DNA from: a virus
Lineage: Duplodnaviria > Heunggongvirae > Uroviricota > Caudoviricetes
Virus record (IMG/VR): IMGVR_UViG_3300046008_000242
Span: 185,363-249,362 of that record
DNA length: 64,000 nt
Strand: one strand, 5' to 3'
Shown: one piece after another, positions 1 through 58,257 of the stretch
Layout of the letters: the number at the start of each line of letters is the position of its first letter
How positions within the stretch are numbered: position 1 is the stretch's first letter
Program-made: the position numbers and the translations under genes
Notes under the pieces: generated by a model
Seen by the model: only the letters and a program-made list of their open reading frames with translations
Database searches by the model: none
Told to the model about the DNA's origin: nothing

Positions 1-1214
1 TAATGTCATTGTATCGATTCTTCAACTGTTTAACCATAATCTGATTCATACCCTCTAATTCTTCAGATGACATTAATGCCAAGAACAAATCCAATGTATG
101 GGTTAGACCAGTACTCTCACTGACATTGGTAATATCCATGTCTGTCGAGGTCATACCTTCACGATTCGTTTGCGTGCTTGTAATTATTGGGACTTGATAC
201 TCTACAGCCAATCCTCGCATTTCCTCCGCAATTGATTTAATATACGCGTATGAATTAACACTGTTGCCAAATTTTAATTTCTGAGAAGCACAGATGTTAA
301 GATAATCGATGATAATCATATCTGGTTTGAAATTCTTTTTGATTTTCAATTCTTCAAGTAATGCTCTAAAATGACCAACATGCGCGGAACTGGTTGGGTA
401 TTGTTTGACAATCAATTTGCCCGTAGTCTTATCCATTAGACGTTTCATTCTGGTTTCAAATAATGATTTATCGATTGTCTCAATTTCCGAGATACTAATG
501 TTCAACAAGTTAGCGTCAATACGTTCCGCAATCTTTTCTTCAGCCATCTCCATTGTAATGTATAATACATTCTTATTCTGCATTAGAGTAGAAGCGGCAA
601 TATGGCATTTAACAAGAGATTTACCAACACCGGTAGAAGCAATGAATGCCGATAACGTACCCTTGCCAAGACCATCTTTTGTAATTTTATTGAAGATGGA
701 TAAATCAAATGGTATCTTATCTTCAGTGTGATGGTAATAATTGAATCTCGATTCCCAATCATCAATGTATGAATGACCAATATTGGTATCAAAGGATACA
801 GCCAATGCGTCTGATAAAATGCTTGGTAATGCGTCTTTAGTTACATTCTGTACTTTGCCATCAATGACTTTAATAGAATGCATAATGGCATTGTATAATG
901 CTTTGTCTTGACAGTATTTCTCAGTTTCTTGCGTCAACCATTGGATGTTGATATTTTTATCTGAATATGACGCAACTAGATTTTCAATATCTTTTAATTC
1001 AGAATCAGATACATCTGTTCTATTTGATGATTCAATTTGTAGTATTTGTTTGGTGGGTAATGTATTATATTTGGCAAAATAATCATTAATTTGTTGTAAT
1101 ATAATCTGTTCTGGTCGTTCCTGAAAATAATCTAATTTCAGGAACGGTAACACCTTCCGACAATACTCATCAGAATGTAATAAATTTTCAATAATTACAT
1201 TTTCAATTCTATCC
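1..1214 (-). CDS. 41: DnaB-like replicative primase-helicase gp41, partial (about 404 aa; C-terminus runs off the window start)
   Basis: My own minus-strand translation from the ATG at 1212-1214 gives MMDRIENVIIENLLHSDEYCRKVLPFLKLDYFQERPEQ. It contains a Walker A (GKGTLSAFIASTGVGKSL) and NVLYITMEMAEEKIAERIDANLL, LIVKQYPT, VEYQVPIITSTQTNREG. These blocks are collinear with T4 gp41. This ORF is missing from the track because it is open-ended. Confidence 0.85.
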
Positions 1215-1215
1215 A

Positions 1216-1575
1216 TCATTTAATCTCCAATTGATTCACTGTGTCTTCTACTTCCTTAATTCCTTCTTTTATATCCATCAATGGCATATTGAATTTATGA
1301 TGTTCAGAAAAATCAATTCTTGATACACTAATCCAACCTTTATGGTCGGCTCCATATTCAATATTCCTTAATCGATGGGTATCATATCCTTGGACCAATT
1401 CTAATCCTAAACACTTATCGACTTTAATGAAACGATATAGTTCAGATTTACCGATTTCGACTAAACTGAACCACTTTCCTGCTTTACTCTTGAAATGATT
1501 GAACCTTACATCTTCTACGACCATTTTACTGTTAGGTGTGGGTAAGTCGCTCCCATTAAAATCATTTAAAATCAT
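1216..1575 (-). CDS. hypothetical protein, 119 aa, translationally coupled to gene 41
   Basis: ORF track; its stop overlaps the gene 41 start (ATGA). Confidence 0.5.
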   Translation of the reverse strand: MILNDFNGSDLPTPNSKMVVEDVRFNHFKSKAGKWFSLVEIGKSELYRFIKVDKCLGLELVQGYDTHRLRNIEYGADHKGWISVSRIDFSEHHKFNMPLMDIKEGIKEVEDTVNQLEIK

Positions 1576-1785
1576 TTAAACTCCGATCGATGTTAAATTG
1601 CTGATAAAAAGTTCAGCGTCTGAAAATCTCGTTAAATTGCATTCCAATGAATCTATTATAATGTATTTTTTTGTCGAACTCGGCGATTCATTATTCCATC
1701 TTCTTAACATGGAATTAAACTAAATAAAAATGACAACCGCGAAGTCCACACTTCCGTTGTCTCTAATCACATCTAAAGGAATTTT

Positions 1786-2766
1786 ATGACCAGCAATAAT
1801 ATCTATATCGATAAAATAATCGAATTATCTAACGACAGCCCACAAACAGCAGAGTACATTCTAATCGTATCTAATGCCAGAATCAGAGCATCCACTAAAA
1901 ACGACGCAATTTCAATTTTAGGTTATACGGAAGAACATCATATATTACCCAAATCATTTAAGATGGGCGGAGCGACGGATAAATTGAATTATGCCTATCT
2001 ATCGGCAAGAGAACATTATCGAGCCCATCAATTGTTATTAGAGATGGGATTAAAACGTAATTTACACGAGAAGATGATACACGCATTTTGGTTGTTATGC
2101 ATCGATGGTAAACACAAGTTCATATCCGAAGAAGAATACCGAGAATTGAAGATTTTAAGAAGCGATAATCATAATATGAAAGATCCAGAATGTATCCAAA
2201 AACGTCGAGATAATAATTTGGAGAACACTGGATTCACCCATCCTATGAAAAATCCAGAATGTAAAGAAAAAAGTAGAAATACTAATTTGGAGAAAACTGG
2301 ATACGACAATCCTATGCAAAATCCAGAATGTAAAGAAAAGAAGAAACGCACCTTGGAAATAAAATATAGTAGACCATTGGTTATACAAATTGAACAAGAT
2401 ATAGAAAAATATAATATTATTAATCCAAGAAAAATTATGGGAATTAAATGCACCGATTGGAGACAAGTCGATTATGAAAAACTAGAAGAATGTTCTGTCA
2501 ATTTCTATAAATTTTTAGATGAACGTAAAATCAAGATAAAAGAATACGAATGTAGGATAAACGAGATTAGTTCCGCGTTTAAATCAATAGATGATAAACA
2601 ATCCTTAATGGATTATATCATAGAAATCAAGGATTTTTATAACATACCAAATCACACTGGTGTAATGGAAGTATGTCACAACTGGAAGAGATTAAATGTA
2701 ATAAAATTACAAATTGCATTAGGAAAATTGTTGAAACATACTATTGATAAATTTTATATGAATTAG
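1786..2766 (+). CDS. Mob-like HNH homing endonuclease, free-standing, opposite strand to its neighbours
   Basis: EEHHILPKS and AREHYRAH motifs typical of T4 Mob/HNH_3 enzymes. Three tandem NPECKEK(S/K)RNTNLEKTG peptide repeats. ATG at 1786. Confidence 0.75.
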   Translation: MTSNNIYIDKIIELSNDSPQTAEYILIVSNARIRASTKNDAISILGYTEEHHILPKSFKMGGATDKLNYAYLSAREHYRAHQLLLEMGLKRNLHEKMIHAFWLLCIDGKHKFISEEEYRELKILRSDNHNMKDPECIQKRRDNNLENTGFTHPMKNPECKEKSRNTNLEKTGYDNPMQNPECKEKKKRTLEIKYSRPLVIQIEQDIEKYNIINPRKIMGIKCTDWRQVDYEKLEECSVNFYKFLDERKIKIKEYECRINEISSAFKSIDDKQSLMDYIIEIKDFYNIPNHTGVMEVCHNWKRLNVIKLQIALGKLLKHTIDKFYMN

Positions 2767-2833
2767 ACAGACTGATATTAAAGGACAATCGGGTCTTGAC
2801 AGACAGCAGAGAAACCCAAGATAGAACCTTCAT

Positions 2834-2867
2834 TAAAAATCCCACTCAGAAATCAATCTGGCGGGAT
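2834..2867 (-). terminator. intrinsic terminator (minus strand)
   Basis: Minus-strand hairpin AUCCCGCCAGA...UCUGAGUGGGAU followed by a UUUUUAAUG run. Same family as the terminators at 24.4, 24.8, 25.3 and 28.9 kb. Confidence 0.5.
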
Positions 2868-3043
2868 CTAAATGGAGTCGAGTATTTTTACATGTATATT
2901 GTTGCACTGACTACGCTAAATCCGTCGAACATCGAGCCATGATCTAATCCTAGACCATTTCTTGAGTAAATAAAGAAGAGGGTTCGACTAATAATTGTGG
3001 ATATCGTATTCAAAATTTTCAAATTTGTTAATTTGTAGATGTT

Positions 3044-3577
3044 TCATAGATATAATGCATGGAAGTCTAATTTTGGTTCAAAATTATTCAATCTCAAAGA
3101 TGTCACAATAACGACAATAAGATTTTCATGGGACACGGAACGACCAACAAATCTATCGTCGATGAAAATATCATAACAATCAAATCTTTTTGTATAAACC
3201 AGCAATTTCTTATGTTTACCAAATCCAAAGAATGAGTTCTTACTTGGTAAAGAGAACTCAAAAGAAAACCCATCTTTCTTATTGTATGAAAAATGGGTTG
3301 ATTTGGCTGATAATGTGTTTCTTAGATAAGGAATTACATATTCCTTTTTAGATTCAATTTCTTTGGTAATTCTTTGTATAAACAATTGTTCTAATTCATG
3401 TACATCCTTTACATTGAGTATTGATTTACCGTCTTTAAATGGTAAATCATATCCTTTAGATTCCAAAGGAATTACAGACCATTTGCTGAAATGATTGGAT
3501 AAAAGAAATACTTCTCCATCAAATGTAATGTCGAAGTATTCTAGTAATGTTTTATTGTTTAAAATATCTGTTGTCAT
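3044..3577 (-). CDS. hypothetical protein, 177 aa
   Basis: ORF track; minus-strand gene string. Confidence 0.5.
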   Translation of the reverse strand: MTTDILNNKTLLEYFDITFDGEVFLLSNHFSKWSVIPLESKGYDLPFKDGKSILNVKDVHELEQLFIQRITKEIESKKEYVIPYLRNTLSAKSTHFSYNKKDGFSFEFSLPSKNSFFGFGKHKKLLVYTKRFDCYDIFIDDRFVGRSVSHENLIVVIVTSLRLNNFEPKLDFHALYL

Positions 3578-3991
3578 TTATTCCCCATAAGATAAACTAT
3601 TCCACTCAATAATCACTTCATTGAGTTTTTGTCTGATTGTCAAGATATTATCAACGTCTACTTCAATTGTTGAAAATTCCATACAAAAATCAATAAATCC
3701 TTCTTTTACATCAACTTTTTCTAATGACGTTGAACCATTAAAATAGACAGTTGAATCATTATTAAATCCAATACAAACCCCATCAACATAGATTTTAATC
3801 ATACCAGAAGGAGTTACATGGATCCAAGGAGTTCCTTTATAAGAAAGAGTTTTACCGACATTCATTGATTGTGACATATTGAAAGATGACACTTTCAATG
3901 TTCCGTATCCGCCAAAGAAGAACTTTTTGAGAATACCTTTACGGAACATTGAAGTTTCTGAATCGATTAAAGATTGAATTGAGTTTGTCAT
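3578..3991 (-). CDS. hypothetical protein, 137 aa
   Basis: ORF track; abuts the upstream gene. Confidence 0.5.
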   Translation of the reverse strand: MTNSIQSLIDSETSMFRKGILKKFFFGGYGTLKVSSFNMSQSMNVGKTLSYKGTPWIHVTPSGMIKIYVDGVCIGFNNDSTVYFNGSTSLEKVDVKEGFIDFCMEFSTIEVDVDNILTIRQKLNEVIIEWNSLSYGE

Positions 3992-4063
3992 TTGTAGATC
4001 CTCGAAATAAGATAATAAAGTAATTAGATTCTATTATAGTGATTTTCGAGGAGTTCGAAAGAT

Positions 4064-4255
4064 TTATTTTAGTAATGATTCTAATGCAATAATAACTAAA
4101 GCACCTAATCCAGCGAACAATCCTAAAGTTGCTAAGATAATCCATGGAACCATCAATGGTAAGAAGACCCACCACCAAGATAATGTAATCAATTCCAAAA
4201 GTTTAAGAACCAATAATACCAAAAATGTTACCGCATATAAATTATTCATGTTCAA
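4064..4255 (-). CDS. small membrane protein, 63 aa
   Basis: Hydrophobic ORF with WWW and a GLFAGLGALVIIAL helix. An overlapping alternative ORF 3939..4178 also exists. Confidence 0.4.
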   Translation of the reverse strand: MNMNNLYAVTFLVLLVLKLLELITLSWWWVFLPLMVPWIILATLGLFAGLGALVIIALESLLK

Positions 4256-4539
4256 CTCAAGATTGCCAATACGTCATCTTCTCGCATAATCAATAACGTT
4301 TCACCGTCAATTTTTGCTTCGATACCAGAATTTCTACCAAACAAAACTTTATCACCAACTGAGATAGACATTGAACGTAAATCTCCATTTTCCAACGATT
4401 TACCAGATCCAACTTCTAATACAACACCTTGACAAGGTTTCTCTGTTCCAGCTGTAGTCAGGATAAGACCACCAGCAGATGTAGTTTCAACATCAACTCG
4501 TTTTACAACAATTTTATCATATAATGGTTTAATGCTCAT
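4252..4539 (-). CDS. groES: GroES/Cpn10 co-chaperonin
   Basis: 95 aa. MSIKPLYDKIVVKR...AGGLIL...GVVLEVGSG...GDLRSMSISVGDKVLFGR is near-collinear with bacterial GroES (mobile loop, roof hairpin) and much closer to cellular GroES than to T4 gp31. Confidence 0.8.
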   Translation of the reverse strand: MSIKPLYDKIVVKRVDVETTSAGGLILTTAGTEKPCQGVVLEVGSGKSLENGDLRSMSISVGDKVLFGRNSGIEAKIDGETLLIMREDDVLAILS

Positions 4540-4548
4540 TTTTAATTC

Positions 4549-5250
4549 CTATTTTGCGATTACTGTAAATTCATTTTCAGAAATTCGATAATGTGTAATA
4601 TATTCTTTATTTAAGCGTTGTTCAACAATTTCTTGGATTGACATACGACTTGGATAACTTCTGGTTATTAAATCGCCAGTTATATTATATACACCAAAAT
4701 CTTTTTTAAATGTATATTGACGTACATATTTTGGTTTGGATAAAAATTCAATGATTTCTGGGACAGTGTTACAATCTTGTTGTCTTGATAATCCATCAGA
4801 ACATTTATCTTTATGATTTGTAACAAAATACAATCCTTTAACACTTTCATTCACTCTGATATGAGCTGAGATTGAATTGTCATTCCATAATTCAATCCAT
4901 GTATCCAATAATTTACCAGAACGAATAACGTCATTTTTAATCTTAACTTGAAAATTTGATTGAATCTCTCTATTGTTATATACATCCAACAATAATTGGT
5001 TCTTATCGACAATCTTCTCAAGACCAGCATGAGTTGCAATCATTGTAACAAATTCATTCAAATCGTTTTTATTGACTTCGATATAATTGATATCATCTGT
5101 TCCGAAGATCTTAACTTGTTCTGACGGATTGTCATAATGGTCTGCAATCATATATACACATTCATAATCGTAATCTAAATGAGTTTGTGTAATTCCATCT
5201 TCTGTAGATTGTTTTAATTTCAACGCCATTTTATTCTCCAAATTGTTCAA
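4549..5250 (-). CDS. hypothetical protein, 233 aa
   Basis: ORF track. Confidence 0.5.
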   Translation of the reverse strand: MNNLENKMALKLKQSTEDGITQTHLDYDYECVYMIADHYDNPSEQVKIFGTDDINYIEVNKNDLNEFVTMIATHAGLEKIVDKNQLLLDVYNNREIQSNFQVKIKNDVIRSGKLLDTWIELWNDNSISAHIRVNESVKGLYFVTNHKDKCSDGLSRQQDCNTVPEIIEFLSKPKYVRQYTFKKDFGVYNITGDLITRSYPSRMSIQEIVEQRLNKEYITHYRISENEFTVIAK

Positions 5251-5283
5251 TTTCTAAATGTAACCATTTATATTCAAATGATT

Positions 5284-5931
5284 TTAACTCTTCAAGTAAA
5301 TCATGTTCGCCAATTTTTCTGTAAAATAATCATCATACGTCCCTTCTGAATAATAGTAAGAATCATTGACGTAATCTGCATCCAATTCTCCAAATAATTG
5401 TTTTACCACAAATTCAGAACATTCTTGTTCTGTAATCTCAGAATCACTAATCCAATATCTCAATGAAATCTTAGATGTATAACAAGCGTTCGAAATACGT
5501 TCCACCAATGGAGTAAATTCATCCGAACTTAATACAAGAACATTATCTCGTTCCTTGAATTCTTTAAGTTTGATGTAACCAGAAAATTCAATTGTATTAC
5601 TCATATCATTTATCTCTGATTGTATTGTTGTAGAAATTGTATAATGTACAGCAGAAATCTCAATCAACAATTCTGGGGCATTAGAGTAGAAATAAGATGA
5701 ATTGGTTGAACAGACTAACAATCTCATGTCGTCTAATGTGATACAAATTCTGTCTTCATGGTATCCAGGAAACCAGATAACAATCTCACCATTATCTGTT
5801 GTAAAGTTCACTTTGGCAGAAACTTCTTCACCAAGTTGTTCCATGATAGATTTGGCGATATGACCAGTTAATACATTTCTTCCGATTCTGTAAGCAGATA
5901 CCAATCCAACCAATTTATTTTCATTTGACAT
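5284..5931 (-). CDS. hypothetical protein, 215 aa
   Basis: ORF track. Confidence 0.5.
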   Translation of the reverse strand: MSNENKLVGLVSAYRIGRNVLTGHIAKSIMEQLGEEVSAKVNFTTDNGEIVIWFPGYHEDRICITLDDMRLLVCSTNSSYFYSNAPELLIEISAVHYTISTTIQSEINDMSNTIEFSGYIKLKEFKERDNVLVLSSDEFTPLVERISNACYTSKISLRYWISDSEITEQECSEFVVKQLFGELDADYVNDSYYYSEGTYDDYFTEKLANMIYLKS

Positions 5932-6014
5932 TTTTAAATCCTTCTTTTAATTTGATGTAAATTTAAACCTCAAGAGTATTATAATCGATTTCAGATAAGA
6001 TTAAAAGATTATTT

Positions 6015-6386
6015 TTACATTCCTTTGATTGAACCATTAACAGTCGAAACTTCACCTTGGACACTTCCACCAATCTTAACGGATCCATTGGTAGTTTTTA
6101 CATTACCCAAAACGATTCCATCTACTTGTACGTTACCATTGGTTGTCTCAACATTATCCACATTTCCTTGTACAATAATCTTATCGCAAATATCTACATT
6201 TAATGATTCGATATCACCATTGATTTGTATATTGATATTCTTATCATCAGACGATTCTTGAATTTTATCATCAATATACACTTTACCGTTGGCAACTCTA
6301 ACATTGGTTCCAGAACCATAATTCTTACCATTTACAATGATAGAACCACCAACATTATCTGAATTAGATTTATTCCAGAACGCCAT
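6015..6386 (-). CDS. bactofilin-like (polymer-forming, beta-helical repeat) protein
   Basis: Short V/N/G repeats (NGKVYIDD, IQINGDIES, VQGNVDNVETTNGNVQVDGIVLGNVKTTNGSVKIGGSVQGEVSTVNGSIKG) resemble the bactofilin DUF583 repeat. The track start at 6422 is a TTG; the first ATG is at 6386 (MAFWNK). Confidence 0.4.
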   Translation of the reverse strand: MAFWNKSNSDNVGGSIIVNGKNYGSGTNVRVANGKVYIDDKIQESSDDKNINIQINGDIESLNVDICDKIIVQGNVDNVETTNGNVQVDGIVLGNVKTTNGSVKIGGSVQGEVSTVNGSIKGM

Positions 6387-6387
6387 C

Positions 6388-7077
6388 TTATCTCTCCATC
6401 TTCTTAAAAATGTTATTAACAATCAAAGGAACTTGCTCTCCTGCCTTACCTTGGAAGAACTCAAATTCATTATATACATGTTCTGGTTTATTAGGGTCTA
6501 CCAGTAAAATCTTACAATCTTTAGACACAGCATCAACCAGACTGGCGGCAGGATAAACTGACAATGATGTTCCAACCACAACAAGATAATCAAATTGTTC
6601 TTGTTTAATCATATCATAAACAGAATGGAATTCAGTTACATCTTCATGGAAGAATACAATATGTGGTCTTAACTGATTACCTTGTTCGGATAATGTTCCG
6701 ACAAACATATCATCATTCCAATCATATACAAATCCTGTTACCATATCTCTTGCTTTCAGTAATTCGCCATGTAGATGGATTACTCTAGTTGAACCTGCTC
6801 TCTCATGTAAATTATCAACATTAGAAGTAATCACTGTTACATCATGATATTGTTCCAATTCCTTGATAGCATAATGAGCTGGATTTGGTTCAACAGTCTG
6901 AACTTCCTTACGTCGTTTGTTATAGAATTCATGAACCAATTCAGGAGTTTCTCTAAGAGCCTTTGGTGTACATACATCTTCAATCTTGTAGTTGTTCCAT
7001 AATCCATCTGAATCTCTAAAGGTACTCAATCCTGATTCGGCTGATACACCCGCTCCAGTTAAAAATAAAATATTCAT
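6388..7077 (-). CDS. Sir2-family (sirtuin-like) NAD-dependent enzyme lacking the Zn ribbon
   Basis: GAGVSAESGLSTFR (NAD-binding), TSNVDNLHERAG, IHLHGEL (catalytic His). The segment where CobB and Sir2 carry CxxC...CxxC has no cysteine. Confidence 0.75.
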   Translation of the reverse strand: MNILFLTGAGVSAESGLSTFRDSDGLWNNYKIEDVCTPKALRETPELVHEFYNKRRKEVQTVEPNPAHYAIKELEQYHDVTVITSNVDNLHERAGSTRVIHLHGELLKARDMVTGFVYDWNDDMFVGTLSEQGNQLRPHIVFFHEDVTEFHSVYDMIKQEQFDYLVVVGTSLSVYPAASLVDAVSKDCKILLVDPNKPEHVYNEFEFFQGKAGEQVPLIVNNIFKKMER

Positions 7078-9071: not shown

Positions 9072-9596
9072 TCAATCATACACATACTCTAATGTATCAG
9101 TCTTCAAACCGTTCTCGATAATATCACAAAGAACATCTCCAACATACATCTCAAACTCTTCATCGATTGTTCCTACTCCATCAGGAACATAATGTACATT
9201 ATACTTGAATCCCAACTCTCTATCGTCAGATTCAATAGGTGGTATATGTATATCCTCGTATGACACAATATATCCATTAAACTTACCCTTCAACTCAACT
9301 GCTGTAATCTTATCACCTAAGTCATTGATATAACTGATTACTTCATACTTGTTAGCCGTTGGCTGTAAATCTTTCATGATAATCGGAATTGCTGAGATTT
9401 CAATGGTGTTATCGTATTGGTCTTCGACGGTAATGTTATCGTATCCAATTTTGTTAAGATGATTGATTACTTGGTCGAATCGCTGGTCATCTGTTATATC
9501 GGGAAATGTTGACAACTCTCTGATATTTGACTCTTGGTCTTCGATTACAATTGAATCTTCTAAGTATCTTACAGTGAAATTAGTCATCCAAATCAT
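9072..9596 (-). CDS. hypothetical protein, 174 aa, directly downstream of uvsX (the gene 40 position in T4 order)
   Basis: ORF track; overlaps the uvsX stop. No recognisable motif. Confidence 0.5.
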   Translation of the reverse strand: MIWMTNFTVRYLEDSIVIEDQESNIRELSTFPDITDDQRFDQVINHLNKIGYDNITVEDQYDNTIEISAIPIIMKDLQPTANKYEVISYINDLGDKITAVELKGKFNGYIVSYEDIHIPPIESDDRELGFKYNVHYVPDGVGTIDEEFEMYVGDVLCDIIENGLKTDTLEYVYD

Positions 9597-11055
9597 CCAT
9601 GTCTAGGTTATCTAATTCGTCTGTAATTGAATCGTCCGTCAACATTGTTCCATTAGCAATTTTATATCTGTCTTCAACCCATTGTTTAAATTTGTCAGAT
9701 TGGAGAATAGGATTCCAAAATTCTTTTGTATTGGTTTCTTTCAAACGATAATTTTTATCTTCAATTTCTCCAGTTTTTGTGTCGATTCGTTGATACCAAC
9801 CATTTTTCGGTTTAATGCAAATTCCTGCTTCTAATGCCATATCCATCAAACCAGACCATTTGGAAATCCCATTATCATAATTTACACAAATTGGAATTTT
9901 AGATTTTTCTTTAACAAATCTTGATTTTTCGACATTGATGATGAAATTATATCCAATAACATCAGTTCCATCTTTTTCTTGTTGTCGACCAATAATAAAA
10001 ATTGTATTGGCAGAATAATAGATTCCAGTATTATGAGTAACTACCCCATTTTCTAAAATATAATGTTCAACATCTTTGACTGAAATGTCATACACTTTAC
10101 GAGTTCCAACAGAAATAATACTTTTAATTTTGGAATTGCGTTGATTGTCTATACAAACCAATGTTTTATCTGTCGATAAATTTGACGCTTCAACCCATCC
10201 AGAATCTGTCAAGAAAGGATGATTTTCTGAAACAACACATTTATATCCATCTTCAAATTCTATTTCAAAACATTCAGGTTCTCCAACTTCTAATGTATCT
10301 GGATTCCAAATATGAGTAACTGGTTTAGAACCATTTAATGTTTTAACTAATTCTCCAACTTCAATATCTTCAATTTTTTTAATTGAACCATCAAACATGA
10401 TAAGATTAGTCCCAGCTTCTAAACAACCTCCACTAACTACAGCTGAGGGGAACAGCGACATTGAATCGTAAGTGTGATTCACACAAATCATTGGAATATC
10501 ATATTTAGTTAGATATGGAGTAATCATACGGAAACATGATTTTAATTGTTTTGCTCTAGTTAGATCCGATACGGACTTCTCTGCCAGTGAATCTTCGCGC
10601 TCTTTCCGTGAAGACATGTTACCTATTGAATCTACAACGAAAATTACATTTGTCTTTCTATCTAATGCATTTAATTGAGCCATCACTTCAAATTTGAATT
10701 CTTCGATATCCATAATGGGTACATGTAATACTCTTTCAATATCTATTTCGAATGATTCGAAGTAGGACTTTGGTGATCCGTACTCCGTATCCATAAAAAT
10801 TAAAACAGCATCATCATGTTTATCTAAATATGCCTTTGCCATAACTAGACAAAGCGACGTTTTGAACGATTTCGATTTTCCGCAAGCTAAAATTAAACCG
10901 CTAGAAATACCACCATATAAAGAACCAGATAACGCAATGTTTAATGCAGGAACATCTGTAATACATACGTCGCCACCATTAACAATTTTAGATTCCGACA
11001 ACACCGCAGTTTCTTTAATTGTGCTTGTTTTTTTCAATCTTTCCATTAAACTCAT
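9580..11055 (-). CDS. uvsX: UvsX RecA-like recombinase interrupted in frame by a 132-aa mini-intein (extein about 359 aa)
   Basis: Extein is collinear with T4 UvsX (Walker A ACGKSKSF, VCVNHTYDS, SANTIFIIGRQQEKDG, NVEKSRFVKEKSK, KPKNGWY). The insertion CLEAGTNLIMFDG...GVVTHN sits between SGG and TGIYYS, exactly where T4 has GGG|TGPMYS. Confidence 0.9.
   Translation of the reverse strand: MSLMERLKKTSTIKETAVLSESKIVNGGDVCITDVPALNIALSGSLYGGISSGLILACGKSKSFKTSLCLVMAKAYLDKHDDAVLIFMDTEYGSPKSYFESFEIDIERVLHVPIMDIEEFKFEVMAQLNALDRKTNVIFVVDSIGNMSSRKEREDSLAEKSVSDLTRAKQLKSCFRMITPYLTKYDIPMICVNHTYDSMSLFPSAVVSGGCLEAGTNLIMFDGSIKKIEDIEVGELVKTLNGSKPVTHIWNPDTLEVGEPECFEIEFEDGYKCVVSENHPFLTDSGWVEASNLSTDKTLVCIDNQRNSKIKSIISVGTRKVYDISVKDVEHYILENGVVTHNTGIYYSANTIFIIGRQQEKDGTDVIGYNFIINVEKSRFVKEKSKIPICVNYDNGISKWSGLMDMALEAGICIKPKNGWYQRIDTKTGEIEDKNYRLKETNTKEFWNPILQSDKFKQWVEDRYKIANGTMLTDDSITDELDNLDMDDLDD
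10030..10425 (-). mobile_element. mini-intein (Hint domain only, no endonuclease domain) inside uvsX
   Basis: N-terminal Cys codon (TGT; plus strand aca at 10423-10425). C-terminal His-Asn (plus strand att/atg at 10030-10035) followed by a +1 Thr. 132 aa, too short for a LAGLIDADG or HNH insert. Confidence 0.8.
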
Positions 11056-11068
11056 ATGTGTTTCCTAT

Positions 11069-11425
11069 TCAATTCATAAAATTACATAATGACACTTGTT
11101 CATTATTTTCAGTCTTTTCAATATATTTGTTAAAAATATAATTGGTTAATTCTTGTACACTTTCTTTTAAATCTTCATCGCTCCAAACATATATAACTTC
11201 ATAACCATATGATTCTGCTAATTGAAGTTTCTCTAAATCTCTATTATATGATTCTTCATATAATTTACCATACGCAGATTTCCATTCAAAATCGAATTCT
11301 CTGGGATGAAATGCAATCCCATTATATTCAATAATTATTTTTAATTCATTGATTGTGAAATCATAAAATCTTATACCAGATTTTGGTTGATTAAATGTTA
11401 AAAACCATTCTCTAGAACCAGACAC
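11069..11425 (-). CDS. Vsr/DUF559-like PD-(D/E)xK nuclease domain protein, 118 aa
   Basis: IIEYNGIAFHPREFDF ... NRDLEKLQLAESYGYEVIYVWSDEDL matches the DUF559/Vsr-like endonuclease core pattern. Confidence 0.5.
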   Translation of the reverse strand: MSGSREWFLTFNQPKSGIRFYDFTINELKIIIEYNGIAFHPREFDFEWKSAYGKLYEESYNRDLEKLQLAESYGYEVIYVWSDEDLKESVQELTNYIFNKYIEKTENNEQVSLCNFMN

Positions 11426-11437
11426 ACCAAAGTAAAT

Positions 11438-12664
11438 TTATTTACGTTTCAATACACCCAATTTCCTTAGATTTTTATATAGTTTAAGAAAAAATATATT
11501 AGCTTCCTTACTAGAACGAGTAAACGATCGTTCATTTAATGCCATTTTTTCTAATCTTTGTCTGTAGATAATTGGACCTTCTAATTCTCCATATTTTCTT
11601 TTACAATTTTCAACAGTCCATCCTTTTTTAGAATTCATTTCAGAAATTTCTTCTTCTGATTTATTATATAATGATTTCATCCATAAATCAGTTCTGGCTT
11701 TCCAAACAGAATACCCTTCAGACTTTCCATATTTAGATACACAATAATCTAATGAAAAATTATTACGTTGTTTGAAATATTCGTCTAAAATTTTTAAAGA
11801 TTCTTCTTCTGAATGACCATTTTCCATCCAATATTCTTTACAACAAAAAATCTTATGTCGTCCTTTCTTTTCATTGTAAATTATTGTTCCTTCTTCAACA
11901 CCATGTCGTTCAATATAAAATTCTAAATTACCTTGTCCATTTCTTATCTCTAGAATTTTCTGATATTCTATCATTCCTATAATTACACCAAACTTAGAAA
12001 TATAATTATCAAGAGATAATGATTTAGATTTACCTAATGCAATTCGTTCTTCTTCTGGTTTATTAAAATGAGTTTCACTAATTTGTTTACCTCTTTTATA
12101 AACTATATGTTCTGCTTCCTCTTTGGAAACCCCATCCCGTTTCATAATTCCATTTATATTATTTGAACCATATTTCTCTTTGAAATCTATTTTCGCTAAT
12201 TCAATATCATCATAATCTTTCGAAAACTTTTCAAATGAACATGTTGCGCAATTTTTATTTAATTGTAATTTATCTTTATATTGTTTTGAATTTTCACCAT
12301 ATAAAAATAAAATCATTTCTGTCGTCGAAGCGGAACGTTTTGCTTTCTTAAATTTTTCTAACGATTCAATGTACAATTTATAACATTCATTTATGGAAAT
12401 GTTTTTAGATTCTTTTACATTAAAAATTATTTTCTTAATAACCGGATATGATAATGAATTGTATTTGGAAATTTTACCTTCAAATTCAAGCATTTCTGGT
12501 AAAGTTAATGAATTATCAACATTCATCATATTAAATCGTTTATTTTTATGAAATTCAACAATACCAGAACCAGTCGATTCTCTATTTTGTTTCACTTTAA
12601 GAATTGCTTCTTCTTTTGTATATCCAAGATCGATATACGTTTGTTCACTATACGTATTTGCCAT
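11438..12664 (-). CDS. repeat-containing protein, 408 aa, possibly the DNA-binding part of a split Vsr-like homing endonuclease
   Basis: At least six degenerate repeats of about 45 aa, of the type (Y/F)xxK(Y/F)G..EEG..(I/V)Y. It ends 12 nt before the Vsr-like ORF, which is in a different frame. Confidence 0.45.
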   Translation of the reverse strand: MANTYSEQTYIDLGYTKEEAILKVKQNRESTGSGIVEFHKNKRFNMMNVDNSLTLPEMLEFEGKISKYNSLSYPVIKKIIFNVKESKNISINECYKLYIESLEKFKKAKRSASTTEMILFLYGENSKQYKDKLQLNKNCATCSFEKFSKDYDDIELAKIDFKEKYGSNNINGIMKRDGVSKEEAEHIVYKRGKQISETHFNKPEEERIALGKSKSLSLDNYISKFGVIIGMIEYQKILEIRNGQGNLEFYIERHGVEEGTIIYNEKKGRHKIFCCKEYWMENGHSEEESLKILDEYFKQRNNFSLDYCVSKYGKSEGYSVWKARTDLWMKSLYNKSEEEISEMNSKKGWTVENCKRKYGELEGPIIYRQRLEKMALNERSFTRSSKEANIFFLKLYKNLRKLGVLKRK

Positions 12665-33223: not shown

Positions 33224-34693
33224 TTAAAGATTATCTGATACAATCTTACGAATTTCAGCTAATGATGTTTCCTTAACCAACTTGCCGTCTTTGAATACAA
33301 CTTCTAAACATCCATGTTTTTCATGCTTTGGTTCAACATTATCATTCAATGTATATTGACCATTTTCATGAGATACCATCAATAGACCTTTAGCTGATTT
33401 CTTAGTCCCATCATCCGTTTTTGGATCTTTGAAGATAACTCTTGATTTACCGTTAATTATTGCATAAGTGGATTTAAGTGCAAAACCATGAGTATCTCTT
33501 GTCACATATCCCAACGAATACGAACCAATTCCAAATACTATATTATTAGAAGCAAATCCTTTTTGTTCTAATCTGACGAAAATAGATTGTTGTCGATCTA
33601 ATGTGATAGAATCGCCATAGATAGTGCCAATTTTTGGATTTAATACTTTATAACCTTTAGAGTTAATTGTTCCACCAAAAGTATCCCATAAACATTCAAT
33701 TAAACCTTTGTCTTCTGGCAAACATCCACCTATGATAGGATATATTCCACAAATAATATCAACTGGGTCGCCTGAATCAGGTCTTATAACCAATTTACCT
33801 TCTCGGGATTCAATTCTATCCTTTAATGTAGGAAGATATTCAGTAACAACTTTCCAAAAATCATAACTATCCGCCACATATGAAACGATACCAGTTGGAT
33901 AAACTTCTGTTATAATTCGGGTCAACGTTTCTAATTCATCTTCGTGTCCTCCTGAACAAACTACACTATGTTCGCTTGCTGGTACAGAATATGCTATGTC
34001 CGTTGTTGCTCCATAATATTCTTTAGCAAGTAAGATAGCTGGTATCGTATCTGTTCCTTTTGAACCAGTTGCAATAAAAGCAAACCCAGAAATTGCAGCA
34101 GCTTCTTTACATTGCATACCTCTCATACTAAAATCATGTTGTTGGAAAGGAACAAATGAATTATCATCACATGTCTTTTCTGAAAACTCTAAACTTTTAT
34201 TATAAAATGCTCGTGATGTGGTTGCGGTTGAACAAGGTAACCAAAGTTCTGCGGATAATACAGTTTCAATCATATTAGTCACCCAGAAGAATTCAGGTAA
34301 CGTATTTTTAATTGTTAAAACAGGTACACCATATGGAACAAACGAACCTTCTGGTAACGCTTTAATTTCAATTGGAAGATACCCTAAGTCATATAACGAT
34401 TCAATATGACTGACATTAGTTTCTCCTAATGAATCATCAACAATTTCTTTATATGACTGGATAACGAAATCTTTGGGTTGTTTAAAGAATGTTTCGCCCC
34501 ATTCGCGGATTAAATGTTTAATAATAAAGTATTGTAATCCAATAAAGTAAATACCTTTAGATCCAGGAATGTTTGATAATCTACCCGAACGAGGTGTAAA
34601 GTTAGAATAAATTAATTCCGTCCCTTTTGGATATTGATTAACATGTGACACTTTATAAAAATCTTTTTGTAATGGTGCAAAATTTGTAGACAT
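33224..34693 (-). CDS. nicotinamide phosphoribosyltransferase family protein (NAMPT/NadV-like; alternatively a Namat-type NAD-reconstitution enzyme)
   Basis: 489 aa. N-terminal DFYKVSHVNQYPKGT (the NAMPT DSYK.THY.QYP motif), GTDTIPA, SVPASEHS, and the overall NAMPT length. The track start at 34705 is a TTG; the first ATG is at 34693. Confidence 0.8.
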   Translation of the reverse strand: MSTNFAPLQKDFYKVSHVNQYPKGTELIYSNFTPRSGRLSNIPGSKGIYFIGLQYFIIKHLIREWGETFFKQPKDFVIQSYKEIVDDSLGETNVSHIESLYDLGYLPIEIKALPEGSFVPYGVPVLTIKNTLPEFFWVTNMIETVLSAELWLPCSTATTSRAFYNKSLEFSEKTCDDNSFVPFQQHDFSMRGMQCKEAAAISGFAFIATGSKGTDTIPAILLAKEYYGATTDIAYSVPASEHSVVCSGGHEDELETLTRIITEVYPTGIVSYVADSYDFWKVVTEYLPTLKDRIESREGKLVIRPDSGDPVDIICGIYPIIGGCLPEDKGLIECLWDTFGGTINSKGYKVLNPKIGTIYGDSITLDRQQSIFVRLEQKGFASNNIVFGIGSYSLGYVTRDTHGFALKSTYAIINGKSRVIFKDPKTDDGTKKSAKGLLMVSHENGQYTLNDNVEPKHEKHGCLEVVFKDGKLVKETSLAEIRKIVSDNL

Positions 34694-34714
34694 AATATCT
34701 CTCAATAATTTATT

Positions 34715-35980
34715 TTAAAAATCATATAGTGGAAGTTTACCAACTAACCAATTAGTATCAACTGTTTCATTTTTGTTTAAAATTTTTTCTTCTTTTGTTG
34801 TTGGATTATACACCCAATGCTCTTTTCTTGTAATTACTATTTCATGAGGTTTGATTTCCGCAAAAATAATGTTATACACCCCAATCTCATGAATTGATCT
34901 TACTGTAGTTTTACCTTTATATTTTTTTGAATATAAACCAGTTTTAAATTCTTCAATTGTTATATAAACACGGTTTCCGTTCATATCAATTGCGGAAACC
35001 ATACCAATTGATGTTCCATTATAATTTCCAGAATCGAATTCTTCTTTAGAAATTTGTCTAGTTGTTCCATTTTCATCTTTTATTATAACTTTACCTTTAT
35101 TTACATGTTCATACTCATGTATATTTTCTTTATTTATTCGTAAATTATTTCCATTTTCGTCTTTTACAATTACAAAGCCTTTATTTACTCCATCATAGTT
35201 GCCAGAATCGAATTCTTCTTTAGAAATTTGTCTAGTTGTTCCATTTTCATCTTTTATTACAACTTTACCTTTACTAATACCAACAAAAATATTACTATAA
35301 AATTCGTCAGATTTGATCCTAATAATTTTACCATTTTCATCTAATGCTACGACAAATCCAGAACTAGGAGTAATATAATTTCCAGAATCGAATTCTTCTT
35401 TAGAAATTCTTTTTGTACATTCGGTATCATTTAAAATAACTACAAAGCCTTTATTTACTCCATCATAGTTGCCAGAATCGAATTCTTCTTTAGAAATTTG
35501 TCTAGTTGTTCCATTTTCATCTTTTATTACAACTTTACCTTTATTATTACCAACATAATTTCCAGAATAAAATTCTTTAGTTGTGATCCTAATAATTTTA
35601 CCATTTTCATCTAATGCAGAAACAAATCCTCTATTATAATAAAAATTTTCATATTTAGTTTTATATTTTTTATTATCGTCGCCGACCATCATTGTTAATG
35701 AAAATGACATCGAAAAATTTTTAGGGTATATTTTAGTTAATAAAATATGGGCAATAATATGTTGTTCGAATGTTAAAACAACGCCATTCCAAGGAAACTC
35801 TTTTATATTTTTATATTCTGGAAATAAATCTTTTGCTTTTGGACAAATATGATGAACTTCACAATAAATACTCTTTCCTATAAATTTATTTTTTATCCTA
35901 CATTTTTCTATGAAATTTTTATAATGATTGATATAAAATTCATTGCATGGTTTTGTTTTTAAAATTTCTAAATAATCCAT
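34715..35980 (-). CDS. Mob-like HNH homing endonuclease inserted between the NAMPT fragment and the full NAMPT gene
   Basis: EVHHICPKAKDLFPEY plus repeated GNY...KGxVVI modules. It is a paralogue of the HNH at 57006..58253. Confidence 0.75.
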   Translation of the reverse strand: MDYLEILKTKPCNEFYINHYKNFIEKCRIKNKFIGKSIYCEVHHICPKAKDLFPEYKNIKEFPWNGVVLTFEQHIIAHILLTKIYPKNFSMSFSLTMMVGDDNKKYKTKYENFYYNRGFVSALDENGKIIRITTKEFYSGNYVGNNKGKVVIKDENGTTRQISKEEFDSGNYDGVNKGFVVILNDTECTKRISKEEFDSGNYITPSSGFVVALDENGKIIRIKSDEFYSNIFVGISKGKVVIKDENGTTRQISKEEFDSGNYDGVNKGFVIVKDENGNNLRINKENIHEYEHVNKGKVIIKDENGTTRQISKEEFDSGNYNGTSIGMVSAIDMNGNRVYITIEEFKTGLYSKKYKGKTTVRSIHEIGVYNIIFAEIKPHEIVITRKEHWVYNPTTKEEKILNKNETVDTNWLVGKLPLYDF

Positions 35981-56989: not shown

Positions 56990-57005
56990 ATATTTTCCTA
57001 TTAAG

Positions 57006-58253: not shown

Positions 58254-58257
58254 TTTA

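What the first reader, a model, noticed from the sequence alone, without database searches (positions are those of the whole stretch)
10030..10425. Mini-intein in the UvsX recombinase
The uvsX reading frame contains a 132-aa in-frame insertion that begins with Cys and ends with His-Asn followed by Thr. It falls exactly at the GGG|TG position of T4 UvsX, within the conserved ATPase core. This is a canonical class-1 intein signature, and the insert is Hint-only, having lost any endonuclease. RecA-family inteins are known in bacteria and archaea, but a UvsX intein is uncommon.
Basis: seen in the sequence. Interest (0 to 1): 0.7.

Follow-up and report, generated by a model that had tools for sequence, protein, structure and literature searches.

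The report
Self-splicing mini-intein in phage UvsX recombinase
The recombination gene uvsX of this uncultured T4-like phage is interrupted by a real, compact self-splicing protein element (a mini-intein); this kind of element is well known, and this copy belongs to a large family, apparently undescribed in the papers searched, whose other members are mostly split in two by homing-endonuclease genes.

Summary
Window 10030-10425 (minus strand) encodes a 132-aa in-frame insert (Cys1 ... His-Asn, then Thr) in a 491-aa uvsX ORF (9580-11055). Removing it gives a 359-aa protein that aligns without a gap across the junction to T4 UvsX, at T4 G211|T212.

The insert passes the curated intein thresholds. 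It has Cys1, a Ser-x-x-His block B, block F Asp and block G His-Asn, each conserved in 42-43 of 43 relatives. Its model is a confident HINT fold, closest to the gp41-1 intein. It has no endonuclease domain. It is therefore a class-1 mini-intein, predicted to release 40.5-kDa UvsX and a 14.7-kDa intein. Splicing itself is untested.

It is not rare. At least 51 protein clusters from metagenomes carry a contiguous intein at this site. About 25 GenBank Straboviridae records and about 26 IMG/VR loci carry the same intein naturally split, usually with a GIY-YIG, HNH or EDxHD-like homing endonuclease gene between the halves.

Directly upstream of uvsX lies an EDxHD-like endonuclease gene broken by an in-frame stop.

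I found no paper describing a UvsX intein. Verdict: a new member of a known kind, of moderate interest.

The parts
9580..11055 (-). uvsX precursor ORF: 491 aa plus stop, predicted 55.3 kDa
   Evidence: ORF list. Pfam T4_UVSX_C, RecA and Intein_splicing. The exact protein is P0001, on a 249-kb JGI contig. Mass.
10426..11055 (-). N-extein, aa 1-210, ending ...AVVSGG. Its Walker A motif GKSKSFKT (aa 59-66, window 10858-10881) is intact and uninterrupted.
   Evidence: Translation; alignment to T4 UvsX 3IO5.
10030..10425 (-). Class-1 mini-intein: 132 aa, 14.7 kDa, HINT domain only
   Evidence: AF2 pLDDT 96.7. Foldseek best hit is the gp41-1 intein 6QAZ (E 8.9e-10, TM 0.83/0.86, rmsd 1.9 A).
10423..10425 (-). 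Cys1 codon (TGT), the block A nucleophile
   Evidence: Sequence. Cys in 43 of 43 homologues.
10219..10230 (-). Block B, S66-E-N-H69, the TxxH equivalent
   Evidence: Ser 40 and Thr 3 of 43; His 43 of 43.
10129..10149 (-). Short linker, intein residues 93-99 (DNQRNSK). Relatives are split here (IntN 93-96 aa, IntC 35 aa) and carry homing endonuclease genes at this point. The window copy is continuous, with no stop or start codon.
   Evidence: Alignment with the split inteins of Proteus phage PM2, Vibrio phage VmeM-32 and L011.
10030..10107 (-). Blocks F and G, GTRKVYDISVKDVEHYILENGVVTHN. They contain D113 (10087-10089), H121, and H131-N132 (10030-10035).
   Evidence: D113 43/43, H121 32/43, H131 42/43, N132 43/43. 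TIGR01443 C-terminal model.
10027..10029 (-). Thr +1 codon (ACT), the C-extein nucleophile
   Evidence: Sequence. The +1 residue is Thr or Ser in 43 of 43.
9580..10029 (-). C-extein, aa 343-491 plus stop, beginning TGIYYSANTIFIIG; includes the T4_UVSX_C domain
11069..12664 (-). Neighbouring gene directly upstream of uvsX: an EDxHD/Vsr-like homing-endonuclease-like gene. A single in-frame TAA (11438-11440) breaks it into a 408-aa ORF and a 118-aa ORF. It is a possible former helper for mobility and is not part of the intein.
   Evidence: Same frame, one stop. Intact homologues of 512-541 aa read through this position. PHROG homing-endonuclease hits and a weak DUF559 hit. The top three fold matches are I-Bth0305I and Vsr, all weak. 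The stop is present in an independent assembly.

Best explanation
The 396-nt insert is a functional class-1 mini-intein in the UvsX recombinase of an uncultured T4-like phage.

Predicted splicing pathway. This is inferred from the established class-1 mechanism; the residues are shown here, the chemistry is not.
1. The 55.3-kDa precursor folds its HINT domain.
2. Cys1 attacks the Gly210-Cys211 peptide bond (N-S acyl shift), helped by block B Ser66/His69.
3. The Thr+1 hydroxyl takes over the N-extein by trans-esterification, with block F Asp113 involved.
4. Asn132 cyclises, helped by His131 and His121, and releases the 14.7-kDa intein.
5. An O-N shift leaves a native Gly-Thr bond. This gives a 40.5-kDa UvsX that is colinear with T4 UvsX.

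Position. The intein sits at T4 G211|T212, which aligns with E. coli RecA TTGG|NALKF, directly after the L2 DNA-binding loop. The unspliced precursor should therefore be inactive.

Mobility. The intein has no endonuclease of its own. It belongs to one family that occupies this same site in many T4-like phages. Members are either contiguous, as here, or naturally split with a free-standing homing endonuclease gene between the halves. I infer that it spreads by homologous recombination between co-infecting phages, helped in some lineages by endonucleases supplied in trans.
For: - Domain models exceed their curated cut-offs.
- The exteins are gap-free and colinear with T4 UvsX.
- Twenty-nine contiguous homologues and six intein-free alleles align with the insert at one site, (S/G)GG|C...HN|(T/S)G.
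- Catalytic residues are invariant or nearly so across 43 sequences that average about 50% identity in the intein: C1, S/T66, H69, D113 and N132 in 43/43, and H131 in 42/43. This indicates selection for splicing.
- The AF2 model has pLDDT 96.7 and pTM 0.88. It is all-beta, and the listed 50 best PDB fold matches are HINT-domain proteins, mostly inteins, led by gp41-1 at TM 0.83-0.86.
- No endonuclease domain is present.
- The protein is identical in an independent assembly.
- Horizontal movement is suggested by discordant similarity. The window's exteins are closest to an intein-free allele (P0007, 74% overall). Its intein is 73% identical to that of P0002, whose exteins are only 57% identical. 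Across 378 pairs, intein and extein identities correlate weakly (r = 0.31).
Against: - No experiment shows splicing. Everything rests on sequence and a predicted structure.
- Block B has Ser in place of the textbook Thr. This is a conservative variant, also seen in the gp41-1 intein in the alignment.
- Block F His121 is conserved in only 32 of 43 sequences.
- The mobility mechanism is inferred. The discordance could also arise from precise intein loss in the P0007 lineage.
- Base composition shows no sign of recent arrival: GC is 30% in the intein and 31% in the window.
Confidence: 0.9

Rival explanations
1. The intein is a conditional switch as well as a parasite. Splicing, and therefore UvsX activity, would be gated by a cue during infection such as redox state, ssDNA or temperature. 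This would resemble what has been reported for the Pyrococcus horikoshii RadA intein.
For: The host protein is a RecA-family recombinase. For such proteins, extein-dependent control of splicing has been reported for RadA (PMC4513877, read). A second Cys, C52 in the PEC motif, is conserved in 38 of 43 family members and could in principle form a redox trap with Cys1. The site adjoins the L2 DNA-binding loop (PMC3239194).
Against: Nothing in the sequence demonstrates regulation. Intein-free alleles are common among close relatives, so the intein is dispensable. The family pattern of split forms, decaying endonuclease genes and discordant phylogeny is typical of a selfish element. I could not measure the C1-C52 distance in the model.
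Confidence: 0.12
2. The intein is a dead remnant. It no longer splices, and uvsX in this phage is effectively a pseudogene or yields a recombinase with a tolerated insertion.
For: The neighbouring endonuclease gene is decayed by an in-frame stop, which shows that mobile-element decay occurs at this locus. From established knowledge, uvsX is not strictly essential in T4.
Against: Every catalytic position is intact in the window copy and conserved across the family. The ORF is open for 491 codons. The exteins keep the invariant UvsX residues. A 132-aa domain at the end of the L2 loop in the RecA core would be expected to block filament function.
Confidence: 0.05
3. The insert is a non-intein Hint domain, either a bacterial intein-like (BIL) or pretoxin PT-HINT module. 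It would only cleave, or serve another role, without ligating its flanks.
For: Weak sub-threshold matches to PT-HINT (26.6 against 27.7 bits), Vint and Hom_end_hint. BIL structures appear among the fold matches at ranks 19-36.
Against: The intein-specific N- and C-terminal models pass their cut-offs. The insert interrupts a conserved enzyme core at a single-residue junction, with a +1 Thr/Ser nucleophile and terminal His-Asn in 43 of 43 sequences. Intein-free alleles are exactly colinear. The best fold matches are true inteins.
Confidence: 0.02

Closest known systems
Naturally split UvsX inteins in cultured Straboviridae. Examples are Proteus phages PM2 and vB_PmiM_Pm5461, Yersinia phage vB_YenM_TG1, Escherichia phage HY03, Shewanella phage Thanatos-1 and Vibrio phage vB_VmeM-32. 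They are annotated only as two 'RecA-like recombination protein' CDS flanking a 'homing endonuclease'.
   Same: Same host protein and the same insertion site ((S/T/G)GG|C ... HN|TG). Identity to the window intein is 48-58%. The blocks are shared: CxxxGT, WNPxTL, PEC, SxxH, VYD(I/L)S and EHYxLENGVV(T/S)HN.
   Different: They are fractured genes. IntN (93-96 aa) and IntC (35 aa) lie on separate CDS with a GIY-YIG endonuclease gene between them, truncated in VmeM-32, so they must trans-splice. The window copy is one continuous ORF that would splice in cis. The ranked tblastn table of 50,697 phage records lists no close contiguous relative.
gp41-1 split intein from 'fractured genes' of cyanophage-like metagenomic DNA (Dassa et al. 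2009, PMC2677866; PDB 6QAZ/6RIZ)
   Same: It is the best match both by sequence (E 7e-7) and by fold (TM 0.83-0.87, rmsd 1.8-1.9 A, 26-27% identity). It has a similar minimal size (about 128 aa) and a Ser-x-x-His block B. Its host is also a T4-like phage DNA-metabolism gene.
   Different: Its host is the gp41 helicase, not UvsX. It is naturally split, whereas the window intein is contiguous.
RecA and RadA inteins: M. tuberculosis RecA (site a, residues 252-691), M. leprae RecA (site b, 206-570) and P. horikoshii RadA mini-intein (site c, P-loop) (Topilina et al. 2015, PMC4513877)
   Same: All are class-1 inteins in RecA-fold recombinases, placed in functionally critical regions. The Mtu RecA splicing domain is a good fold match (TM 0.78-0.81).
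   Different: The insertion point differs. The UvsX site aligns to RecA TTGG|NALKF. By HMMER coordinates this is roughly 8-9 residues downstream of M. leprae site b in the L2 loop, and it is unrelated to sites a and c. Sequence identity is only about 20%. The mycobacterial inteins are several hundred residues long (440 and 365 aa by the spans), against 132 aa here.
I-Bth0305I and the EDxHD (Vsr-like) homing endonuclease family (Taylor et al. 2011, PMC3239194). This is the closest relative of the broken gene upstream of uvsX, not of the intein.
   Same: The layout is an N-terminal repeat region followed by a C-terminal Vsr-like nuclease. Invariant E, D, H and D residues fit the EDxHD pattern. 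The top fold hits are 3R3P and Vsr. I-Bth0305I itself targets the L2-coding region of a phage recA gene. A homologous nuclease domain sits inside a split UvsX intein in L018 (hhalign probability 92.9%).
   Different: The fold and Pfam scores are weak (TM 0.35-0.41; DUF559 at 18.6 against a 20.6-bit cut-off). The window copy has an in-frame stop, and its target site is unknown.
T4 segA, a free-standing GIY-YIG homing endonuclease
   Same: Its gene lies immediately upstream of uvsX, in the same position as the window's endonuclease-like gene. It is reported to cleave within uvsX (PMC2988022).
   Different: It belongs to a different nuclease family, and T4 uvsX carries no intein.

Membership tests
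Intein (class 1) | In-frame insertion in a conserved host protein; removing it restores a colinear host sequence | tested here: met
   The spliced 359-aa sequence aligns gap-free across the junction to T4 UvsX 3IO5 (E 1.9e-100). Six intein-free alleles are colinear in alignment A1.
Intein (class 1) | Block A: Cys or Ser as first residue | tested here: met
   Cys1 (TGT at 10423-10425), present in 43 of 43 sequences. TIGR01445 scores 28.5 against a 24.5-bit cut-off.
Intein (class 1) | Block B: T-x-x-H | tested here: met
   S66-E-N-H69. His is present in 43/43. The first position is Ser in 40 and Thr in 3 of 43, a conservative variant that gp41-1 shares (SEEH in the alignment).
Intein (class 1) | Block F acidic and His residues, and block G penultimate His plus terminal Asn | tested here: met
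   D113 43/43, H121 32/43, H131 42/43, N132 43/43. TIGR01443 scores 27.1 against a 15.6-bit cut-off.
Intein (class 1) | C-extein +1 nucleophile (Cys, Ser or Thr) | tested here: met
   Thr343 (ACT at 10027-10029). The +1 residue is Thr or Ser in 43 of 43.
Intein (class 1) | HINT fold | tested here: met
   AF2 pLDDT 96.7. The Foldseek PDB search gives 60 matches at E <= 0.001; the 50 listed are HINT-domain proteins, mostly inteins.
Intein (class 1) | Autocatalytic protein splicing: excision plus extein ligation | not testable with these tools
   Needs expression and mass analysis. Predicted species are 55.3 -> 40.5 + 14.7 kDa.
Mini-intein | No nested homing endonuclease or linker domain between blocks B and F | tested here: met
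   The intein is 132 aa. Neither Pfam nor NCBIfam reports an endonuclease domain. The model is a single all-beta domain. About 10 residues lie where relatives are split.
Class 3 intein (WCT triplet) | No N-terminal nucleophile is used; there is a block F Cys with block B Trp and block G Thr | tested here: not met
   Cys1 is invariant. The block F position holds Asp113, not Cys.
Split intein / fractured gene (Dassa et al. 2009) | IntN and IntC encoded by separate ORFs, often with a free-standing endonuclease gene between them | tested here: not met
   The window intein is one uninterrupted ORF. Homologues in PM2, VmeM-32, L011 and about 26 IMG/VR loci do meet this criterion.
Known RecA/RadA intein insertion sites a-e (PMC4513877) | Same insertion point in the RecA-fold alignment | tested here: inconclusive
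   The UvsX site aligns to RecA TTGG|NALKF. It is clearly not site a or the P-loop site c. From HMMER coordinates for M. smegmatis RecA and the table in PMC4513877, it lies about 8-9 residues downstream of site b. I did not make a direct alignment with M. leprae RecA, and I did not locate sites d and e.
EDxHD / Vsr-like homing endonuclease (neighbouring gene 11069-12664) | C-terminal Vsr-like nuclease with conserved E, D, H and D residues; N-terminal DNA-binding region; an intact ORF | tested here: inconclusive
   Invariant E6, D22, E33, H40 and K66, and near-invariant D63. The top fold hits are 3R3P, 1VSR and 1CW0, but weak (E 0.03-0.05, TM 0.35-0.41). DUF559 is below its cut-off. The ORF is broken by TAA.

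The most novel reading that the evidence does not exclude
The G211|T212 UvsX intein family may record a complete and repeatedly travelled 'fractured gene' cycle within a single lineage. The stages seen are:
- contiguous mini-inteins (window, L014, more than 50 metagenomic clusters);
- split inteins with about 20 nt and no endonuclease gene between the halves (L011);
- split inteins with endonuclease remnants (gaps of 118-516 nt);
- split inteins carrying full GIY-YIG, HNH or EDxHD-like endonuclease genes.

On a rough tree, cis and split forms are interspersed, with about 11 inferred changes of state. If real, mini-inteins are repeatedly broken by invading endonuclease genes, or split inteins can re-fuse.

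The window locus would then be a snapshot of collaborative homing in decline: a contiguous intein next to a decaying EDxHD-like endonuclease gene at the segA-like position upstream of uvsX.
Probability: 0.3. Interest if true: 0.6.

Novelty: new member of a known kind. Interest (0 to 1): 0.35.

Why it matters
For annotation, the 491-aa product should be read as a precursor of a normal 359-aa UvsX, not as an aberrant recombinase. The 'two recombination proteins plus a homing endonuclease' annotated in many cultured T4-like phages are best read as one uvsX gene held together by a trans-splicing intein.

For intein biology, one insertion site shows closely related cis-splicing and naturally split forms, with at least three endonuclease families as occupants. 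This is a compact natural system for asking how split inteins arise and decay.

For protein engineering, gp41-1, the closest solved relative, is cited among the ultra-fast splicing split inteins (PMC13014065). A family with matched cis and split members is therefore a reasonable source of new ligation tools.

None of this changes what is known about how inteins work.

Tried and rejected
1. Is a homing endonuclease gene always next to intein-bearing uvsX? No.
- L005 has DNA polymerase directly upstream and no endonuclease gene.
- L007 has only a 153-aa ORF with no family hit.
- Intact homologues of the window's endonuclease-like gene sit upstream of intein-free uvsX in L010 and L012.
A strict intein-endonuclease pairing is therefore rejected.

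2. Is the window's upstream gene related to the endonucleases in Proteus phage PM2? No significant BLASTP similarity.

3. I recalled that the atypically split VidaL intein might come from UvsX. I could not verify this. The P-loop split intein of L011 has no PDB sequence match at E <= 0.01, and the paper I tried is not held. The idea is dropped.

4. Does base composition point to recent acquisition? No. GC is 30.1% in the intein, 35.2% and 30.7% in the exteins, and 31.2% in the window.

5. Are there more inteins of this family in the window? An HMM built from the family finds only the uvsX copy. The split DNA polymerase has no intein domain.

6. Literature. Searches for UvsX with intein, for split intein with T4-like, for uvsX with interrupted or split, and for intein with 'RecA-like recombination protein' found no description of a UvsX intein. 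The library lacks most subscription journals, so absence is not proof.

7. The PDB sequence search with the 118-aa ORF gave only noise. Its nuclease assignment rests on PHROG hits, the motif alignment and weak fold hits.

8. I did not attempt dN/dS, because the closest relative with DNA available is only 56% identical overall (58% in the intein), so synonymous sites would probably be saturated.
Full report
**1. The observation**

The minus-strand ORF at 9580..11055 encodes 491 aa. It matches Pfam T4_UVSX_C (68 bits), RecA (29 bits) and the intein splicing domain. Window 10030-10425 on the minus strand translates to 132 codons without a stop:

CLEAGTNLIMFDGSIKKIEDIEVGELVKTLNGSKPVTHIWNPDTLEVGEPECFEIEFEDGYKCVVSENHPFLTDSGWVEASNLSTDKTLVCIDNQRNSKIKSIISVGTRKVYDISVKDVEHYILENGVVTHN.

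It is preceded by ...AVVSGG and followed by TGIYYSANTIFIIG.

With the insert deleted, the 359-aa protein aligns to the T4 UvsX crystal chain 3IO5 at E = 1.9e-100, with no gap at the junction. In the T4 genome record the site is G211|T212. An independent Logan assembly encodes the identical protein, so the insert is not an assembly artefact.

**2. What it is**

The isolated insert exceeds the curated thresholds of three intein models:
- Pfam Intein_splicing: 41.0 against 35.8 bits.
- TIGR01445, intein N-terminus: 28.5 against 24.5 bits.
- TIGR01443, intein C-terminus: 27.1 against 15.6 bits.

No endonuclease domain is reported. The best solved relatives by sequence are mini- or split inteins: gp41-1, Npu DnaE and Spl DnaX.

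A search of 5.8 billion proteins returned the exact protein (P0001, on a 249-kb JGI contig). Among the best 120 clusters, 51 are UvsX proteins carrying the intein domain, nearly all 472-552 aa. Intein-free UvsX proteins of 351-367 aa were also returned.

In an alignment of 29 intein-bearing and 6 intein-free proteins, every insert sits at the same point, (S/G)GG|C...HN|(T/S)G. Conservation across 43 sequences is as follows:

| Position | Role | Conservation |
|---|---|---|
| Cys1 | block A nucleophile | 43/43 |
| Ser/Thr66 | block B | 43/43 (Ser 40, Thr 3) |
| His69 | block B | 43/43 |
| Asp113 | block F | 43/43 |
| His121 | block F | 32/43 |
| His131 | block G | 42/43 |
| Asn132 | block G | 43/43 |
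| +1 residue | Thr or Ser | 43/43 |

Mean pairwise intein identity is only about 50%.

An AlphaFold2 model built with this alignment has pLDDT 96.7 and pTM 0.88 and is an all-beta single domain. The Foldseek PDB search gives 60 matches at E <= 0.001. The 50 listed are HINT-domain proteins, mostly inteins, led by gp41-1 (TM 0.83-0.87, rmsd 1.8-1.9 A).

Cys1 together with Asp, not Cys, in block F places it in class 1, not class 3. Block B reads S-E-N-H, a conservative variant that gp41-1 shares.

**3. How it most likely works**

The residues are shown here; the chemistry is inferred from the established class-1 pathway.
1. Cys1 performs the N-S acyl shift at Gly210-Cys211.
2. Thr343 (+1) attacks the thioester.
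3. Asn132 cyclises with help from His131.
4. An O-N shift leaves a Gly-Thr peptide bond.

Predicted masses are 55.3 kDa for the precursor, 40.5 kDa for mature UvsX and 14.7 kDa for the intein.

The site aligns to E. coli RecA TTGG|NALKF, at the C-terminal edge of the L2 DNA-binding loop. Taylor et al. (PMC3239194) note that the L2 region is a target for a recA group I intron endonuclease and for the M. leprae RecA intein. From HMMER coordinates and the table in PMC4513877, the UvsX site lies about 8-9 residues downstream of RecA site b. It is unrelated to sites a and c. I did not make a direct alignment with M. leprae RecA.

**4. Family context**

tblastn of the intein against 50,697 phage records found about 25 listed records of cultured Straboviridae with 48-58% identity to intein residues 1-83 or more. 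They include Proteus PM2 and Pm5461, Yersinia TG1, Escherichia HY03, Shewanella Thanatos-1 and Vibrio VmeM-32. In all of them uvsX is annotated as two 'recombination protein' CDS with a 'homing endonuclease' between.

Translating the PM2 and VmeM-32 loci shows a canonical split intein at the same site:
- IntN is 96 aa, beginning (T/S)GG|C.
- IntC is 35 aa: MKIK...LENGVV(T/S)HN|TG.
- The break maps to N97/S98 of the window intein.

The ranked table of that search lists no close contiguous relative among cultured phages.

An IMG/VR scan gave 30 loci. One is contiguous (L014). About 26 are split at the same site, with IntN-IntC gaps of 118 to 1197 nt. The gaps hold several kinds of sequence:
- GIY-YIG genes (PM2, L015, L016, L037).
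- Truncated GIY-YIG copies (VmeM-32, L039).
- HNH genes (L017, L020, L029-L036, L040).
- An EDxHD-like gene (L018; hhalign probability 92.9%).
- Short remnants (L022, L023).

In L011 the halves are only about 20 nt apart, with no endonuclease gene between them.

A neighbour-joining tree of 61 unique inteins intersperses cis and split forms. It needs 11 Fitch changes, against a mean of 17 for shuffled labels. The tree has 129 columns and no support values, so this is only suggestive.

The window intein's nearest relatives are P0002 (cis, 73%) and L015 (split, 66% over residues 1-92). The window's exteins, however, are closest along their whole length to the intein-free allele P0007. This points to horizontal movement or precise loss.

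**5. Surroundings**

Directly upstream of uvsX, a 408-aa ORF (11438-12664) and a 118-aa ORF (11069-11425) lie in one frame, separated by a single TAA. Intact homologues of 512-541 aa read through this position.

The C-terminal part has the following support for a nuclease assignment:
- It hits phage homing-endonuclease PHROGs.
- It has invariant E, D, H and D residues that fit the EDxHD pattern (PMC3239194).
- Its best three fold matches are I-Bth0305I and Vsr, all weak.

Intact homologues lie immediately upstream of uvsX in L010 and L012, where uvsX is intein-free. In L011 the homologue lies between the halves of a different, atypically split intein (IntN 14 aa) at the Walker-A site K|T. T4 segA occupies the same position relative to uvsX and is reported to cut uvsX (PMC2988022).

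The upstream gene is therefore best read as a decayed endonuclease gene that targets uvsX. Its link to the G211|T212 intein is circumstantial.

**6. Comparison with what is known, and novelty**

Inteins in RecA and RadA, mini-inteins, and split inteins in fractured phage genes are all established (PMC4513877, PMC2677866). Four literature searches found no description of an intein in UvsX. Dassa et al. mention UvsX only as a neighbouring gene. The library is incomplete, so this is not proof.

The element is a new member of a known kind. It is not rare in sequence data: 29 representatives at E <= 1e-30 in a library clustered at 50% identity.

**7. Verdict**

The finding is real and was correctly interpreted. 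A specialist would not be surprised by an intein in a phage recombinase. The wider family, with matched cis and split forms and several endonuclease occupants at one site, gives moderate added value.

Interest 0.35. Confidence that this is a splicing-competent class-1 mini-intein: 0.9.

Noticed in passing
window 11069-12664 (minus strand): An EDxHD/Vsr-like homing-endonuclease-like gene lies immediately upstream of uvsX. A single in-frame TAA (11438-11440) breaks it into 408-aa and 118-aa ORFs. Intact homologues of 512-541 aa exist and also sit directly upstream of uvsX, at the same position as segA in T4.
   Followed up: yes
window 55889-59811 (minus strand): The family-B DNA polymerase gene is split. 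An N-terminal ORF (58258-59811, 517 aa) and a C-terminal ORF (55889-56989, 366 aa) are separated by a 415-aa homing-endonuclease-like gene (57006-58253, phrog_655). Neither half has a detectable intein domain, so the two halves would have to work without protein splicing.
   Followed up: partly
window 34715-35980 (minus strand) and 1786-2766 (plus strand): Two further ORFs match the homing endonuclease family phrog_655. The window therefore carries at least four endonuclease-like genes.
   Followed up: no
L011 (ENA ERZ27247850 k141_843858) 3679-6795: uvsX is fractured twice here. At the Walker-A site K|T there is an atypically split intein: a 14-aa IntN (CLGSEAKLIVYEHV) and an IntC of about 125 aa, with a 519-aa EDxHD-like gene between them. 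At the G211|T212 site there is a second split intein, with about 20 nt and no endonuclease gene between the halves. P0019 starts inside the same kind of P-loop intein. UvsX therefore has at least two intein insertion sites.
   Followed up: partly
L006 (JGI 3300033498 Ga0316610_1000001) 1-3968: On the 305-kb contig that carries a contiguous UvsX intein (P0009), the DNA polymerase gene is itself fractured. The N-terminal part has an intein hit. It is followed by a 351-aa gene with a weak restriction-endonuclease-like Pfam hit (REase_MTES_1575, 19.7 bits, below cut-off). The C-terminal part begins with an intein C-terminal splicing motif.
   Followed up: partly
L039 compared with L037 (IMG/VR loci), gap between IntN and IntC: L039 keeps only a 48-aa N-terminal remnant of the 289-aa GIY-YIG gene found intact in the closely related L037. 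This shows endonuclease decay in place inside a split intein. L022 and L023 keep only a C-terminal '(K/M)RWH...' remnant.
   Followed up: partly
window 33224-34705 and 6388-7077 (minus strand): The window encodes a nicotinamide phosphoribosyltransferase (phrog_448, E 2.6e-190) and a Sir2-like protein (phrog_2162). These are NAD-related genes on a 249-kb T4-like contig with 31% GC.
   Followed up: no
L003/L004 and L008 (sample SRR35488481; JGI 3300059473): The closest intein-free uvsX allele (P0007) and the window's intein-bearing allele (P0001) were both assembled from run SRR35488481. P0007 and the closest intein-bearing relative (P0002) also occur together in JGI sample 3300059473. Potential donor and recipient phages therefore coexist.
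   Followed up: partly
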